A program made the position numbers. From NCBI GenBank assembly GCA_965287045.1, contig OZ336876.1, forward strand, positions 1,736,001-1,800,000: a DNA stretch of 64,000 nt. The letters run 5' to 3'. This document shows, piece after piece, positions 9,001-62,600 of the stretch. This DNA is from Carcharhinus amblyrhynchos. Taxonomy: Eukaryota. The stretch's first letter is position 1. Each line of letters starts with the position of its first letter.

Positions 9001-12000
9001 AAGTTTTCCTTTACCTGAACCGTTGATCATGACCAAATTCTGCAGAGGCTGGAACCCGGAAGAAAAAACAGAGAAGTCTGGAAAAAAAACCCAGTAGGCA
9101 TGACTACATGCATAGGAGATAAAACAGACTTAACCCTACAGATGCTGCCAGATCTCTTGAATCTTTCCAGCATTCACCGACCTATGTTTTTCTGATAACA
9201 CTGACTGCCATGTCACCTTCATGCCACTTTCAGCACTTCTTTCATGCAGAATACTCTCATTATTTCTAGGGTTGTCTTGCATCCATGACATATTTGTTCT
9301 TAGTTCTGACGTGCCCCTTATTTTCTATTTTGCTCAGCTCTCCAACTCGATAATACATTACTTTTCTACAACTCTTCAGCTTTGAAGAAGTCAGTTGGAC
9401 TCGAAATATTGACTTTTTCTCTCTCTCAATACATACTGCCAGATCTGCTGAGTGTATCCACCATCTTCAGTCTTTATTTCAGTTTTCCATTTTCCACACT
9501 GTTTTGCTTTCATTATTCATTAGATAATCAGCTATGTTATGGTCATGAATCAATTGTACTCAAGGAAATATTCACCTTGACTTGAGCTTTCTTCCTGGAC
9601 GTTCCTGAATCTGCCTAATGTCAATTATCCAAAACAGAAAATGCTGGAAAATCTCAGCAGGTCTGACAACATCTGGAAGGAGAAAAAAGAGTTGATGTTT
9701 TGAGTCTAGATGACCCATTGCAAAATACCCTTTGGTGATCCGGTCTGAAAATGTCAGTAATTTTCTCTCCTTACAGATGCTGCCAGACCTGCTGCGATTT
9801 TCCAGCATTTTCTCTTTTGGTTTCTGATGCTAGCATCCGTAGTAACTAATTTTATCTAATGCCAATTATTAATTGTTTGAAATGGAAGTGATGCTTTTAA
9901 AATAAAAGAGAAAGGAGAGCTATATAAATCTACGGAATACGGATCATTGGAATAGATTAAAATTCGTTAATAATATAAATATGATGTGTTCAAAAAACCC
10001 TTGGGCATTGCAATGTTGTATGAAATACATTGATCCATTATCATCACAAAATCACAGAATCCAGACCATGCAGAAGAATGCCATTCGGCCAATCCAGTCT
10101 TCATGGTTTATCTTTCCTGGGCTCTTTCCCTGTAACCCTATCTATTTACCACTCCCACTATCTTCCCTAACTTTTTCAGAATTTGGAAGCTCGGATAGTT
10201 GCAATTATTTTTCCATAATGCAATGTGAAATGTCTTCTCACAACTGTTATGGAAAACAGTCCTGGTAGATAGAACAACAGTTCACCATGCATTCAATTGT
10301 TGCAATCTCAATTCAGAAACACGTTGAATCAGTTGCAACAACTTTTGAATTAACCAAAACAACGGCATGAATTATTCCTTTGCCTGGCGTTTAGAATTTG
10401 CTCCTGATTTGTCTGCATGAAAATGTATCTATGTTCAAATTTGTGAAATATATTTTTTCGGACACTTGTTTTGAGTTGACAGGGAAATCAGACGAAGATT
10501 AATGCTATCGTCACAACATGTCCTGTGTTTGATCAGCTTTATGGATCATAACCAAGAAAAAAAAACAGTTAATTGAATGAAGGGAAAATCAGAAAGGGCG
10601 CAAAATGTATTTCCAACATATTGCCACCAGTATGTTTGCACACAACACCTGAATCCCTTCAACATTACTTGTCAATTCATTCAGAAGCATACATAGAAAA
10701 TATAAGCATGGGAAGGCCATTCGGCCCTTCGAGCTTCCTCTGCCTTTGTCTTCCCTCTCTCCATATCCCTTGATCGCTTTAGTCCAGACCTATTTCTAAT
10801 TTATTTTTGAAATCATGCTCTGTAGCTATTTGTGATCACTTCTCACTCTTCTAAACCCCAAAGAATGTTGGCCTAAACGATTTACTCTCGCCTCATATGA
10901 CAGTCCTACTCTCCCAGGAATCATCCTAGTCAACTTTTGTTGCACCCTCTCTATAGCAAGAACATATTTCCTCAGATAAGGGCAACAAAACTTCACAAAT
11001 TACTCCAAAAGTGGCCCCAGCAACGCTCTCTACATAAATTCACTGGTCCTCATCATATCTTTTTTCACATCCTTAGAATTAGGTTATCAGCAAGTATTAA
11101 GTACCAAAACGCAAACTTCAAATGAGAGGGCTGTATACTCACATTTTCGTCTGGGCTAGGATATTGGGCCCGGGGAATTTCTGAAACAAGACAATGCACA
11201 ATTATAACCCTACATTTTATCAACATTGAATAATGTATATTCTCTTTAACATCATGTTCCCCTTAAAATGGTAACTTATCAACTTTCACTCATGGTTATC
11301 AAAACTGAACTTCTTCAATGCTAAACTAGTTGAATTAATATATATATGCACGCATCAAAATACGTATCGGAGCTTAATTTTAGATCTAACATTGTGCATT
11401 GAGTGCAGGAGAAGGACTATGTGCTACTCTACAGAGGAACTTGGTAAGACCACACCTCGAATTTGGTCTCCTATTCCGAGGAAGGATGCTCTTGTTATAG
11501 ATGGGGTGCAGAGAAGATTTACCACAACTGATTCCTGTGACGGTAGAACTGATGTTAGTGTAAGGATTCAATTTGTAAGGGTTATATTGGTTGGAACTCG
11601 AAGAATGAGTGAGGCGAAGCCGAGTGGGTGGGGGCCTCAGTGAAACCGAAAAAAAAGCACGACTAGACGGGGTAGATGCAGGAAGAATGCTCCCGATGAT
11701 GGGGTGATAGAAAACCAGGGGTCATAGCCTAAGGATACTGGGTAAAACATTTTGGACTGCGATAAGGACACATTTCTTCATCCAGAGAGCCTCTAGAATT
11801 CGTTACACAGCTGATGTCAAAGTACTGCATGTCTTCAATTAGGAGTTAGGTACAGGCTTTCGAGTGAAGGCGATCAAAGGATTTTGGGAGAAGGTAGGAT
11901 CAGGTATTGAGTTGAATGACCCGCTACGATCGTAGTGAATTGCGGAGTAGACTCGAAGGGCTGAACGGTCTATTCCTACTATCGTTTTCTATATTTCTGT

Positions 12001-59600: not shown

Positions 59601-62600
59601 GTTCTCTCCCTCAGAGAGCCGTGTAGGCTATGGGATCATCAGTATAATCATGGTTGCATGAGATAGCTTTCTAATCAACAACAGAATCAAGAATTTTGAT
59701 GGAACGGCATTTCACAATTATATCAACACCAGTCTTATTTAAAGGCGTTGCTTGATTGCAAAGTCAAATTGCCTATTGCCGTCCATGTTTCTTTATGTTA
59801 CTTCAACTGAATCGTGCTAATATTGGAGATGCCTTTATCAGGAGGAAAATTAGGAAGATTTCCTTTCGCTTAGTCGTTTATGGAAATCAGACCCCTCCCT
59901 CAAAATGTTATGGGTAGTGAAATGGTGAAGGAGCATTTGCGGTAATAATAGCATCTTTGCATGTATATCAAGAAATATGCAAAGATGATATTGGGTAAAT
60001 GGAATTGAGGTACAGAGCAGATGTCTTATAATTGAATAACAAAATATAGGGGAGTTTCAATAGCCTACTTCTGCTTGCACTGATTGAAAATGCTCATGAG
60101 TTTGACATGTAAGTAGATTTTAACAGTCGGAGTGGGATAGGTTATCTTCGGCGAATATAATTCTCAAGATGACTGTTCACAAACGCACAGACTCTCGGGA
60201 TATTGTTCAGATGGTTCATGTGTTGCTAGTCACTGGATATCCTGCAAAGGGGCGAATCTTGTGCCCAGCACACTCGAATAGCTTCTACAGCTTCAGCGTT
60301 GAATAGATAGTGGGATCCTCAGCCTGGACTTTGGGAGTGTCCTTCTGCCGCTGAAATGAACAATGCATTTGGTCAGAAAATCTAGAAATAATCCTGGAAA
60401 TAAGTTTTATATTTCAGTAGCAGCATTGCTCCTGGGAGTAGAGGGGAACACCTCGCTGATCTAAAAAACGCTGATGGTCAGCCAATGGTTACATTTTTAG
60501 ATGAAAGTAACAACCTACGTTAAAGTTGCATAGATGAAGCACAAGAGAAAAACACGGGGAACACAGACCAGGAGAACGAGAGGTGGGACCTTCCCCATAA
60601 ACATGGGCGGGAAGTGATTACACCAGCAATATCTTTTGCTCTAATCATTGATTTGCTTTGGAAAATTTTGCAGGTGCTCACGTCGAAAGGCTTGGAGCAA
60701 ACGACATTCAAAATGGTGGGGGGGGGGGGGGGGGGTGGTGGGTGGGGGGGCGGGGGGAAGTGGGGAAAGGGTGGCGTGGGGCTGTGCGATATGACGTCCT
60801 GCACCATAACACTGCTGACGTATAATTGCCACAACCACATGATGGTGATTGATTCTTGTGTTCCCTTCATTTCCTACAGAGGGAGCAATCCCATACTTCA
60901 CTGTTCAAACATTTGATCACTTCTCTCTCCTTGGACCATTTACAAAAAAAAACATGTTTTAGCTCGTTTTGAAACGTGATAAGAAATTATTTGCCTGATT
61001 GAATATGTAGTCACAACAATTGAGATGATTAGAAAGAAGGACCCAGTGGGAAGAGGAAAAAAAATTTGCATATATCACCCCAACAGAATGTCCGAGTGAA
61101 GTTACAGAATTCACAAGGCTGACAGTATCCAACAGGGGGATGTGTAACTTACACGTTTTCTCCTCGGATTTTCTTTCAGTTGAAGAACAGCATCTAGAGA
61201 TAAAAAAGAACCAAATAAAACAGATATTGTTTGGGTGTGCTAATTCTGCGATAGCTTGTTTCGCAGCGATTGTGGCGATGGTTAGTTTATTCATAGTACC
61301 ACCTGTGAAGCATCACTCCGCTCTAGCCTCCCACCGGCTGATCTGCTACTGAAACCATCATCTGAGCATGTGGTCCCTCCAGCCTTCACTTTCCAACTGC
61401 ATTCCTGAATACCCTCGCTCATCTGAGAGGTAAATCCCTGCAGACTGGACTGTTCCACTATACTCCTGGCCCCACTTCATTATTTATGCACGTGCTCCCT
61501 CTAGGTTGGAATGTCCAACCCCATTCCTGGCTCAGGTCTCACATTCCACCTTCTGGAATGTTGAACCCATCGAATCTCATTATTTTCCTGTGCTTAAAAT
61601 TCTTGTCAATCCCAGTGTTTGCTGAAATCCATTGGCCTCTGTTAAATCTGGATTTGATTTTAAAATGCACCTCCTTATTTTCAAATCCCACTGTGGTGTT
61701 TGCCTTCATCTCTGTTGTAACCCTCTCATGCCCCTCGCAGCACCCATGCCCAACCCTCAGAGATTTCTGCGCAATTCTATTTCTCGCTACTTGGCAACCC
61801 CCATACATCCAACCACCCCAATTTTCATCACTGCACCTGTTGCACACGAGCTTCTAGCTGTCTATATTTAAGTAACTGAAACTCCATCTCCAACCCTCTT
61901 CTACATTCTCTAAATAATATTTTCTTCCACCAATACTTTGTTCAGTATCCATCTCTTTAATCTCGATTCTCTCGATGGTTCAAACTATAATTGAAGTCTG
62001 GCATCACCAAAGAGCCTGGGTTTTGTACCTACAACCTCTTTGGTAATTCGTTCCATTTGTCAGCCTTTATTATTGGGGATACATATCTGCATCTATGTGT
62101 TCCTGATTTCTTTACTCTGTTGCTGTTCGTTAGTTGCCTATATTTGGCGGCAGAAATTATATCAATAGGTGCCATAAAACTGGGATTGTTGGGCTGGTCA
62201 TCTATCCCCACACAGAAGTTAACATTAAATCGCAAAAACTGAAAAACATCTCAATATCAGACATTGGCGAGCGCAAGAACGAGTTCCTAAACAACTCTTT
62301 CGGGGTCGGGCCCGAAAATTTCTTTCTGTCCTCCCATTCAGAATTGAATCAGAAATAATTAAGCTTTATGCCCGCCAATATTGCATTAAAACAAAATGCA
62401 TGCAAACAGTACGGCTAATGTTGTGACAATCATAATAACAATTCTGGGTGCAAGAAGAAAACAAAACACAAAACTTACAGGTCACAGCTTGGCTGCTTTC
62501 GTCATCAGGCATTGTGGCCCTTCAGATAAGAGAAATGGTCAATGAATCACTTTTTGCCACATGTTTCTGGATATTAAAATATTGGGGCAGGTGATGAATG

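What the first reader, a model, noticed from the sequence alone, without database searches (positions are those of the whole stretch)
11143..62519. Tandem cluster of LILR/KIR/FcR-like Ig-superfamily leukocyte receptor genes in a probable shark genome
Seen in sequence: two same-strand genes built from micro-exons with canonical, phase-compatible splice sites. Gene A has leader, LPKP...DxGxYxC C2 Ig domain, stalk, TM and cytoplasmic exons; gene B has a dual-tyrosine tail. Established knowledge: this layout is characteristic of mammalian LRC receptors (LILR/KIR/GPVI/OSCAR), FcR/FCRL, chicken CHIR and teleost LITR. Inference: the window is part of an elasmobranch LRC/FcR-like immunoregulatory receptor cluster. 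To my knowledge such clusters are poorly characterised in cartilaginous fish, so it could bear on the origin of paired receptors. Most of these exons are invisible to an ORF scan.
Basis: partly seen in the sequence, partly recalled or inferred. Interest (0 to 1): 0.85.

Follow-up and report, generated by a model that had tools for sequence, protein, structure and literature searches.

The report
One decayed shark Ig-receptor gene
The window holds a single shark gene for a small immunoglobulin-type cell-surface receptor distantly related to mammalian LILR/KIR/Fc-receptor-like proteins, but this copy looks broken and there is no second gene beside it.

Summary
Its closest relative is an uncharacterised protein of the shark Mustelus asterias (84% identity over the Ig exon). 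That protein belongs to a shark family automatically named LILRA4-like, IGSF1-like or CEACAM6-like. A family profile hits FCRL5 (1.5e-30), PIR-B (5.5e-28) and LILRB1 (2.1e-21).

This copy is damaged. The Ig exon is 280 nt, so it enters in phase 1 and leaves in phase 2. Its conserved last strand lies in another frame, and normal splicing meets a stop in the stalk exon. The second Ig exon, present in 13 of 13 relatives read, is absent. S2 has no AG acceptor.

I found no second receptor gene. The only two-tyrosine ORF (29617-29486) lies inside gene A's first intron and has no homologue. Relatives have uncharged TMs and short tails without ITIM or ITAM motifs, so paired-receptor logic is unsupported.

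Verdict: a probable unprocessed pseudogene, ordinary in itself. The family is worth a proper phylogeny.

The parts
29986..30025 (-). Leader exon S1. ATG at 30025 with a second in-frame ATG at 30016. Encodes MYRMFPAVLLLSL plus 1 nt, followed by donor G|gtgagt; leaves in phase 1.
   Evidence: Pattern hit with 1 mismatch and 0 of 100 shuffles matching. Sequence read. 85% identity to the P0001 N-terminus in A1.
28222..28251 (-). Remnant of leader mini-exon S2 (30 nt in relatives). Encodes ..LLLDIGRAR plus G. The donor G|gtgagt is intact. There is no AG acceptor anywhere from 28280 down to the exon, and an in-frame TAA lies upstream.
   Evidence: DIGRARG is identical to P0001. S2 is a cassette in Scyliorhinus torazame: isoform P0153 has it and P0154 lacks it.
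23149..23428 (-). Ig-A domain exon (RLPKP...EDRGNYRC), 280 nt, phase 1 in and phase 2 out. The conserved last strand VIRVTVM (23170-23150) sits in a different frame from the rest of the exon, so the exon carries a frameshift.
   Evidence: The P0001 equivalent is 291 nt as inferred from its protein.
15742..15783 (-). Stalk micro-exon, 42 nt, phase 1 to 1. Encodes RPEPRNKASAEKA. Acceptor tttcag, donor G|gtaagc.
   Evidence: Pattern hit with 2 mismatches; 3 of 100 shuffles matched. Sequence read. Matches the thrice-repeated stalk unit of P0152 and the stalk of P0153/P0154.
12562..12657 (-). Transmembrane exon, 96 nt, phase 1 to 1. Encodes YNLTSAFSFICTALIVLILTSALLGAILPKR. The hydrophobic core has no charged residue.
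   Evidence: 81% identity to P0001.
11143..11180 (-). Cytoplasmic exon, 38 nt, phase 1 to 0. Encodes (K)IPRAQYPSPDEN, followed by donor gtgagt.
   Evidence: By eye, 9 of 12 residues match IALAQSPSPDEN of P0001.
8222..8245 (-). Last coding exon, ELQDISD plus the stop codon. Acceptor tttag. Lies outside the finding's range.
   Evidence: 100% identical to the P0001 C-terminus.

Best explanation
The window carries one member of a shark-specific family of type I membrane proteins. In intact relatives the layout is a split signal peptide (S1 plus a 30-nt S2), one or more pairs of Ig domains (an 'A' domain starting LPKP and a 'B' domain starting IKAPL), a short Pro/Lys-rich stalk, an uncharged TM helix, and a cytoplasmic tail of about 20 residues ending in ..ELQ... 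The Ig domains are distantly related to those of FCRL, PIR/LILR and KIR receptors.

The window's copy spans 30025 to 8222 on the minus strand and is most likely an unprocessed pseudogene or null allele.
- A net loss of 11 nt near the 3' end of the Ig-A exon, of which 8 nt are frame-shifting, puts the last beta strand out of frame. With the strong natural donor, the reading frame then meets a stop in the eighth codon after the junction with the stalk exon. Three exon junctions lie downstream of that stop, so the transcript is expected to undergo nonsense-mediated decay.
- The Ig-B exon is gone from the 7.4-kb intron, which now holds retroelement fragments.
- S2 has lost its acceptor.

Shown: the exon map, the phases, the frameshift, the absence of Ig-B, and the family relations. 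Inferred: that the copy is non-functional, and that intact family members are leukocyte surface receptors.
For: - Exon map and identities.
- Frameshift: the LPKP frame ends ..SRKRSGSYKSNCNG, while VIRVTVM-G|gt lies in another frame. Relatives read ..SNVIRVTVMAG..SNVIRLTI.G and ..SNVVKVTVMAG in a single frame.
- Downstream phases: stalk, TM, cytoplasmic and last exons are all in phase with the VIRVTVM frame, and S1 is in phase with the LPKP frame.
- Ig-B absent: four motif patterns gave 0 hits at up to 3 mismatches on both strands. No further D.G.Y.C frame lies in that intron. Nothing was seen in the three-frame reading of 12657-23148.
- None of the 13 relatives read lacks Ig-B.
- S2 acceptor.
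- Intron content: an RVT_1 hit at E=2.7e-10 at 17950-18870 on the plus strand.
- Family relations.
Against: - I had no RNA data and no orthologous genomic DNA. The size and position of the deletion are therefore inferred from protein alignment only.
- Two weaker phase-1 donors inside the Ig-A exon could restore the frame, although the domain would then lack its last strand.
- Loss of S2 is not by itself disabling: S1 joined directly to Ig-A is in phase, and an S2-less isoform is annotated in S. torazame (P0154).
- Loss of Ig-B is also in frame.
- An assembly error or a heterozygous null allele cannot be excluded.
- My reading of translations by eye missed the 14-residue stalk at first, so small exons can escape it.
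Confidence: 0.62

Rival explanations
1. The gene is functional as a short, single-Ig receptor. It would skip S2, as an annotated S. torazame isoform does. It would also either use a cryptic phase-1 donor inside the Ig-A exon, or the frameshift is an assembly error or one null allele of a polymorphic gene.
For: - All splice sites of S1, Ig-A, stalk, TM, cytoplasmic and last exons are canonical, and the four 3' exons are mutually in phase.
- Those exons remain 81-100% identical to P0001.
- The S2-less isoform P0154 exists.
- Ig-B loss keeps phase 1 to 1.
Against: - The natural donor G|gtgagt is much closer to consensus than the internal gtagga and gtaact sites (the consensus is recalled).
- Any rescue removes the conserved last strand of the Ig fold.
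- An 8-nt frame-shifting gap is not a typical sequencing error.
- None of the 13 relatives has an Ig-A-only ectodomain.
Confidence: 0.22
2. One reading: the window is part of a tandem cluster with a second same-strand receptor gene (B) carrying a two-tyrosine ITIM-like signalling tail, which would imply paired inhibitory and activating receptors.
For: - More distant relatives do end in two Tyr motifs: 2 of the 5 fetched (P0016, P0107).
- A 44-codon ORF at 29617-29486 on the minus strand holds two Tyr, the second in an ..IYAEIK context, and ends at a good donor.
- Mustelus asterias has at least two paralogues, LOC144493892 and LOC144489049, so clusters may exist outside this window.
Against: - The ORF lies inside gene A's intron 1, downstream of gene A's own leader.
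- The motif match is at chance level: 34 of 100 shuffles.
- BLASTP against P0107 and P0016 gives E=0.41 and 0.73 over 6 residues.
- No protein in the 5.8-billion set shares three words with it (the tool itself calls a blank weak evidence).
- No second Ig, leader, stalk, cytoplasmic or last exon was found.
- No duplicated gene segments were found.
- The micro-ORF at 62519-62479 and the hydrophobic ORF after it run into a stop and have no relatives.
Confidence: 0.06

Closest known systems
Mustelus asterias LOC144493892 (uncharacterised protein, 269 aa; P0001) and its shark relatives. NCBI's automatic names for these are 'leukocyte immunoglobulin-like receptor subfamily A member 4 X3' (Scyliorhinus torazame), 'immunoglobulin superfamily member 1-like' (Carcharodon carcharias), 'CEACAM6-like' (Heterodontus francisci) and 'contactin-2-like' (Pristiophorus japonicus).
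   Same: The leader, Ig-A, stalk, TM and tail exons are collinear and 80-100% identical to P0001 or P0152. The C-terminus ELQDISD is the same.
   Different: The window copy lacks the Ig-B exon, has a frameshift in Ig-A, and has an S2 exon without an acceptor.
FCRL / classical FcR family (FCRL5, PDB 9loc)
   Same: FCRL5 is the best solved-structure match of the family: phmmer 6.6e-17 and profile 1.5e-30. The window's Ig-A exon alone gives 7.4e-5. The signal peptide is split over two exons and the exons are in phase 1 (PMC2413239, passage read).
   Different: - The leader exons are 40 and 30 nt of coding sequence, not the 30/21 rule.
- Close relatives have no ITIM/ITAM tail and no charged TM.
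- FCRL5's score is inflated by its nine Ig domains.
- I ran no phylogeny and no synteny test.
LRC receptors (LILR/PIR, KIR, FCAR, TARM1, chicken CHIR)
   Same: - The domain starts with LPKP, and the two-domain collinear match covers LILRB1/2 D1D2 (query residues 24-217 against chain residues 1-196, E about 1e-10 to 1e-8). PIR-B scores 5.5e-28 and KIR3DL1 1.3e-8.
- Atlas feature neighbours are Fc alpha receptor 0.96, KIR3DL 0.95, IGSF1 and TARM1.
- CHIR-AB1 scores 0.055 with the window exon alone.
   Different: - On a two-domain basis the scores are no better than those for CEACAM1, VEGFR2 or contactin-2 (2e-9 to 6e-10), so specific LRC membership is not shown.
- There is no ITIM tail and no TM arginine.
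- No LRC markers were seen in the window.

Membership tests
Shark LOC144493892-type receptor family (Ig-A/Ig-B pair, stalk, TM, ..ELQ.. tail) | Collinear homologous exons for leader, Ig-A, stalk, TM and tail | tested here: met
   Identity to P0001 is 80-100% for S1, Ig-A, TM and last exon and 57% for the S2 remnant. The cytoplasmic exon was misaligned there (50%); by eye 9 of 12 residues match.
Shark LOC144493892-type receptor family (Ig-A/Ig-B pair, stalk, TM, ..ELQ.. tail) | Ig-B domain (IKAPL...GNY.C.C...SARSN) following Ig-A | tested here: not met
   Four motif patterns gave 0 hits at up to 3 mismatches. The regex and the three-frame reading found none. All 13 relatives read have it.
Shark LOC144493892-type receptor family (Ig-A/Ig-B pair, stalk, TM, ..ELQ.. 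tail) | Open reading frame across all exons with canonical splicing | tested here: not met
   The Ig-A exon is 280 nt (phase 1 to 2) and the stalk needs phase 1. A stop follows in the stalk exon. I traced this by phase only.
FcR / FCRL family | Signal peptide on two exons with a 21-bp second exon (30/21 rule; PMC2413239, passage) | tested here: not met
   The signal peptide is split, but S1 has 40 nt of coding sequence and S2 is 30 nt in relatives.
FcR / FCRL family | Ig domains group with FcR domain subtypes in a phylogeny | not tested
   I have only similarity scores. The script machine was lost, so no tree could be built.
FcR / FCRL and LRC paired receptors | ITIM/ITSM tail, or a charged TM residue for adaptor pairing | tested here: not met
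   The window's TM core is uncharged, and its tail IPRAQYPSPDEN + ELQDISD has no ITIM or ITAM. None of the 13 close relatives has one.
LRC (LILR/KIR/CHIR) | Significant, specific similarity of the Ig domains to LRC domains | tested here: inconclusive
   The family profile gives PIR-B 5.5e-28, LILRB1 2.1e-21 and KIR3DL1 1.3e-8. However, LILR D1D2 chains score about 1e-10, the same range as CEACAM1, VEGFR2 and contactin. Atlas neighbours are mostly LRC genes.
LRC (LILR/KIR/CHIR) | Synteny with LRC markers (TTYH1, LENG8, RPS9) or FCRL-locus markers | not testable with these tools
   No vertebrate genome collection was on hand and there was no tblastn. None of the 78 ORFs of 90 aa or more looked like such a gene by eye.

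The most novel reading that the evidence does not exclude
The family that this gene belongs to is the cartilaginous-fish branch of the FcR/LRC receptor superfamily. It shares the split leader with a mini-exon, phase-1 Ig exons and LPKP-type C2 domains, and it has ITIM-bearing distant cousins such as P0016 and P0107. Published surveys reported that branch as absent from sharks. If so, the superfamily would date to the gnathostome ancestor rather than to bony fish, and the window would show its birth-and-death turnover in a shark.
Probability: 0.45. Interest if true: 0.6.

Novelty: new member of a known kind. Interest (0 to 1): 0.3.

Why it matters
In itself the locus is a single, probably dead copy of a fast-evolving Ig-receptor gene, which is ordinary for such families.

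The family behind it is more interesting. Akula et al. 2014 (PMC4016189, passages read) and a 2026 review (PMC13337447, passages read) state that FcRL and C2-only LRC homologues are lacking in cartilaginous fish. A 2026 IgSF survey lists KIR/LILR as mammal-specific (PMC13262535, passages read). Yet shark genome annotations now contain a family with profile E-values of 1e-30 to 1e-21 against FCRL5, PIR-B and LILRB1, and it is present in at least five genera.

My three literature searches found no paper that describes this family. Supplements were closed and subscription journals are not covered, so it may still be in print. A domain-wise phylogeny with synteny would settle when FcR/LRC-type receptors arose.

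Tried and rejected
- **Wrong frame.** A first translation was in the wrong frame.
- **BLASTP of P0001 against long translated stretches.** The tool rejected this because of stop codons. I read three-frame translations of the whole minus strand instead.
- **Pro/Thr-rich ORF at 22908-22825 (minus) as the stalk.** Rejected: its phase does not fit, it has no good donor and no homologue. The real stalk is at 15783-15742.
- **Frame at 2621-2785 (minus) containing DSGEYFC as a second Ig exon.** Rejected: Pfam matched 0 families, and BLASTP against P0001 and P0006 gave E=0.024 and 0.22 over at most 20 residues.
- **AlphaFold2 of P0001 with a 3-sequence alignment.** Mean pLDDT was 52.9 and pTM 0.37, too poor for a fold search, so none was run.
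- **Rfam at gathering thresholds.** 0 hits.
- **Pfam on 10 long ORFs between 21 and 62 kb.** 2 of 10 had a hit at E of 0.1 or better: weak RVT_1 plus a coiled-coil hit for one ORF, and a LINE-associated domain (PF09004; the LINE association is recalled) for the other. 8 of 10 had nothing.
- **The listing of cluster members.** Switched off, so the unnamed representatives P0002-P0151 carry no names, apart from those that reappeared.
- **Two relaxed pattern searches (TM core, Ig-A start) for diverged paralogues.** I stopped, so paralogous TM or Ig-A-start remnants more diverged than my earlier tests allow stay unchecked.
- **Script machine.** Lost, so I could run no tblastn of the relatives against the window, no tree and no systematic splice-site scan.
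- **Joined model.** I searched the spliced model exon by exon only and left the joined step out.
- **Collections.** I did not use genome contigs, which holds bacteria and archaea only. No shark genome flanks could be examined.

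
Full report
**What is in the window**

The window is 64,000 bases with no N, about 41% G+C, and rich in interspersed repeats and (CA)n tracts. The Ig-like reading frame at the finding's coordinates is on the minus strand. After a ttcag acceptor it reads G-RLPKPVLSLDP...EDRGNYRC and ends at a gtgagt donor. 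Pfam Ig_3 matches at E=2.5e-5, which at 25.1 bits is below the 30-bit gathering cut-off. The observation of an LPKP...DxGxYxC domain at 23149-23428 is therefore correct.

**Organism and nearest relative**

A search of the 5.8-billion protein set with this exon returned 1 hit among 72 candidates. It is an uncharacterised 269-residue protein, LOC144493892 of the shark Mustelus asterias (P0001), at 84% identity and E=9.6e-43. P0001 consists of a signal peptide, two Ig domains, a TM and a short tail. The contig is therefore from a shark, not from a human.

**Exon map, searched exon by exon**

I used P0001 and its relatives as guides, together with three-frame translations of the whole minus strand. 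This located the following exons.

| Exon | Coordinates (minus strand) | Length / phase |
|---|---|---|
| S1 leader (MYRMFPAVLLLSL + 1 nt) | 30025-29986 | 40 nt, leaves in phase 1 |
| S2 remnant (..LLLDIGRAR + G) | 28251-28222 | 30 nt in relatives |
| Ig-A | 23428-23149 | 280 nt, phase 1 to 2 |
| Stalk (RPEPRNKASAEKA) | 15783-15742 | 42 nt, phase 1 to 1 |
| TM | 12657-12562 | 96 nt, phase 1 to 1 |
| Cytoplasmic ((K)IPRAQYPSPDEN) | 11180-11143 | 38 nt, phase 1 to 0 |
| Last exon (ELQDISD + stop) | 8245-8222 | 24 nt |

Aligned separately to P0001, the exons are 85% (S1), 57% (S2), 80% (Ig-A), 81% (TM) and 100% (last exon) identical. The cytoplasmic exon was misplaced by the aligner; by eye it matches 9 of 12 residues.

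The finding's start coordinate, 11143, is the last base of the cytoplasmic exon. The gene continues 2.9 kb beyond that to its true last exon.

**Defects of this copy**

1. *Frameshift in Ig-A.* The Ig-A exon is 280 nt, so it enters in phase 1 and leaves in phase 2.
   - Relatives read ...SNVIRVTVMAG (P0001)...SNVVKVTVMAG (P0152) or ...SNVIRLTI.G (P0005) in a single frame.
   - In the window the LPKP frame runs ...SRKRSGSYKSNCNG, while VIRVTVM-G|gt lies in another frame.
   - The P0001 protein implies a 291-nt exon. The window is therefore 11 nt shorter: 8 nt frame-shifting and 3 nt in frame. This is inferred from protein alignment, not from DNA.
   - S1 is in phase with the LPKP frame. The stalk, TM, cytoplasmic and last exons are in phase with the VIRVTVM frame. 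A single frameshift therefore breaks an otherwise coherent gene.
   - With the natural donor, the frame meets a stop in the eighth codon after the junction with the stalk exon.
2. *Ig-B missing.* The exon for the second Ig domain was not found.
   - Four conserved-motif patterns gave 0 hits at up to 3 mismatches on both strands.
   - The six-frame regex for the Ig signature gave 9 matches in the whole window, and only the Ig-A exon is homology-supported.
   - None of the 13 relatives whose sequences I read lacks Ig-B.
   - The 7.4-kb intron where it should lie holds a reverse-transcriptase fragment (RVT_1 E=2.7e-10) and other repeat copies.
3. *S2 without an acceptor.* S2 keeps its donor but has no AG from 28280 down to the exon, and an in-frame TAA lies upstream.
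   - This lesion alone need not matter. S1 joined directly to Ig-A is in phase.
   - Scyliorhinus torazame has annotated isoforms with and without the 30-nt S2 (P0153 and P0154).

**Is there a second gene?**

I could not reproduce gene B.
- The tblastn of the Ig exon against the window gave the self hit and nothing better than E=0.25.
- Patterns for S1, stalk, TM, cytoplasmic and last exons each hit once.
- The repeat search found no duplicated gene segment.
- Because two more distant relatives end in two tyrosine motifs (P0016 and P0107, 2 of the 5 fetched), I searched for that motif. I found a 44-codon ORF at 29617-29486 with two Tyr, ending at a good donor.
- That ORF lies inside gene A's first intron. 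The motif match occurs in 34 of 100 shuffles. BLASTP to the two tails gives E=0.41 and 0.73 over six residues. No database protein shares three words with it (which the tool itself rates as weak evidence).
- At the finding's end coordinate, 62519, there is a 41-nt micro-ORF with an AG and a GT, followed by a hydrophobic ORF that runs into a stop. Neither has any homology support.

**The family**

An HMMER search of 1.84 billion representatives with P0001 found 909 proteins at E of 0.001 or better, 225 at 1e-10 or better, and 24 at 1e-30 or better. A word-indexed search gave 9 proteins at 1e-10 or better among 2172 candidates, all from sharks. They come from Mustelus asterias (two loci), Scyliorhinus torazame, S. 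canicula, Carcharodon carcharias, Heterodontus francisci and Pristiophorus japonicus. The automatic names range from 'LILRA4 isoform X3' through 'IGSF1-like' and 'CEACAM6-like' to 'contactin-2-like'.

The close relatives share one plan: leader, one or more A/B Ig pairs, stalk (repeated three times in P0152), an uncharged TM and a short tail ending ..ELQ... None of the 13 has an ITIM or ITAM. A TM-less isoform is annotated in S. canicula (P0155).

**Relation to known receptor families**

Against solved structures:

| Query | Top matches (E-value) |
|---|---|
| P0001 alone | FCRL5 6.6e-17; PIR-B 3.4e-9; LILRB1 9.4e-9 |
| Three-sequence family profile | FCRL5 1.5e-30; PIR-B 5.5e-28; LILRB1 2.1e-21; CEA 1.5e-16; KIR3DL1 1.3e-8; FcεRIα 5.9e-6 |
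| Window's Ig-A exon alone | FCRL5 7.4e-5; CHIR-AB1 0.055; LILRB1 0.22 |

The two strongest hits of the Ig-A exon alone were phage Ig-like tail proteins (2.3e-6 and 7.5e-6), matched only over repeated 25-residue motifs.

Two cautions apply. The top scores belong to many-domain chains. Two-domain LILR chains score about 1e-10, no better than CEACAM1, VEGFR2 or contactin-2. The protein-atlas neighbours by language-model features are Fc alpha receptor (0.96), KIR3DL, IGSF1, TARM1, HIDE1 and Allergin-1; I treat these as a lead only.

The split signal peptide is a trait of FcR-like genes (PMC2413239, passage read), but the 30/21-bp rule is not met. That LRC genes have a 36-bp second leader exon is my recollection and comes from no call.

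I conclude that the family works like, and is probably related to, the FcR/LRC superfamily. Membership of either branch is not established.

**How it most likely works**

Intact family members are inferred to be type I surface receptors. Their A/B Ig pairs would bind a ligand. With no signalling motif of their own, they would act through partners, as adhesion or decoy molecules, or through the conserved acidic ..ELQ.. tail. This is inference.

The window's copy most likely makes no functional protein. The strong natural donor yields a premature stop three exon junctions upstream of the end of the gene, which by textbook rules triggers nonsense-mediated decay.

**Literature**

- Akula et al. 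2014 report no FcRL, classical FcR, PIGR or C2-only LRC homologues in shark genomes (PMC4016189, passages read).
- A 2026 review repeats this for FcRL (PMC13337447, passages read).
- A 2026 IgSF survey lists KIR/LILR as mammal-specific (PMC13262535, passages read).
- Three full-text searches turned up no description of this shark family.
- Supplements were closed and may list shark hits that I could not see.

**Verdict**

The finding is a new, apparently decayed member of an annotated but uncharacterised shark Ig-receptor family. It is not a tandem cluster of paired receptors. Interest is modest for the locus and higher for the family.

Noticed in passing
29486-29617 (-): A 44-codon ORF inside gene A's first intron has two tyrosines, the second in an ..IYAEIK context, and ends at a consensus-like donor. 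It resembles the last tyrosine motif of the distant relatives P0016 and P0107 only over 6 residues.
   Followed up: yes
2621-2785 (-): A 55-codon frame ends ..TLYRCSISDSGEYFC, an Ig-like signature 5.4 kb downstream of gene A's stop. Pfam gave no hit, and BLASTP against P0001 and P0006 was not significant. It is probably chance, or at most a very decayed exon.
   Followed up: yes
62390-62519 (-): A 41-nt micro-ORF bounded by AG and GTAAGT lies at the finding's end coordinate. It is followed by a hydrophobic ORF (..IVIMIVTTLAVLFACILF) that runs into a stop. No homology support was found.
   Followed up: partly
17950-18870 (+); 26440-26832 (+); 32741-33103 (-); 46238-46860 (-); 56858-57319 (-): LINE-type fragments. 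The first is a reverse-transcriptase fragment (RVT_1 E=2.7e-10) sitting in the Ig-A-to-stalk intron. Of the others, 26440-26832 gave a weak RVT_1 hit and 32741-33103 a PF09004 hit, while 46238-46860 and 56858-57319 had no Pfam hit and were judged LINE-like by eye. Pieces at 32569-32914 and 45533-45886 are 81-86% alike.
   Followed up: partly
1245-1437 (-), 13999-14190, 16054-16197, 31133-31321, 40379-40458 (-), 54144-54329: A SINE-like interspersed repeat of about 190 nt is present in six copies, 62-89% alike. Rfam shows no match at gathering thresholds.
   Followed up: partly
20000-21700 (+): ORFs here look, by eye, like retrovirus/gypsy-type pol remnants. This rests on motifs recalled from memory, not on a test. 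Pfam found nothing for the one ORF I submitted (21091-21378).
   Followed up: partly
14001-16000: A G+C-rich block (0.507 against about 0.41 elsewhere) with long Gly/Arg-rich ORFs on the minus strand lies between the stalk and TM exons. Its nature is unknown.
   Followed up: no
28740-28840, 34220-34500, 50470-50710, 62900-63500: Long imperfect (CA)n/(TG)n microsatellite tracts account for most of the long 'ORFs' rich in His, Thr, Cys and Val.
   Followed up: no
related proteins P0153, P0154, P0155 (Scyliorhinus): Annotated isoforms of the relatives skip the 30-nt second leader exon (P0154), lack part of the TM (P0153), or lack the whole TM (P0155, a possible soluble form). P0152 of Mustelus has three tandem copies of the 14-residue stalk unit.
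   Followed up: partly
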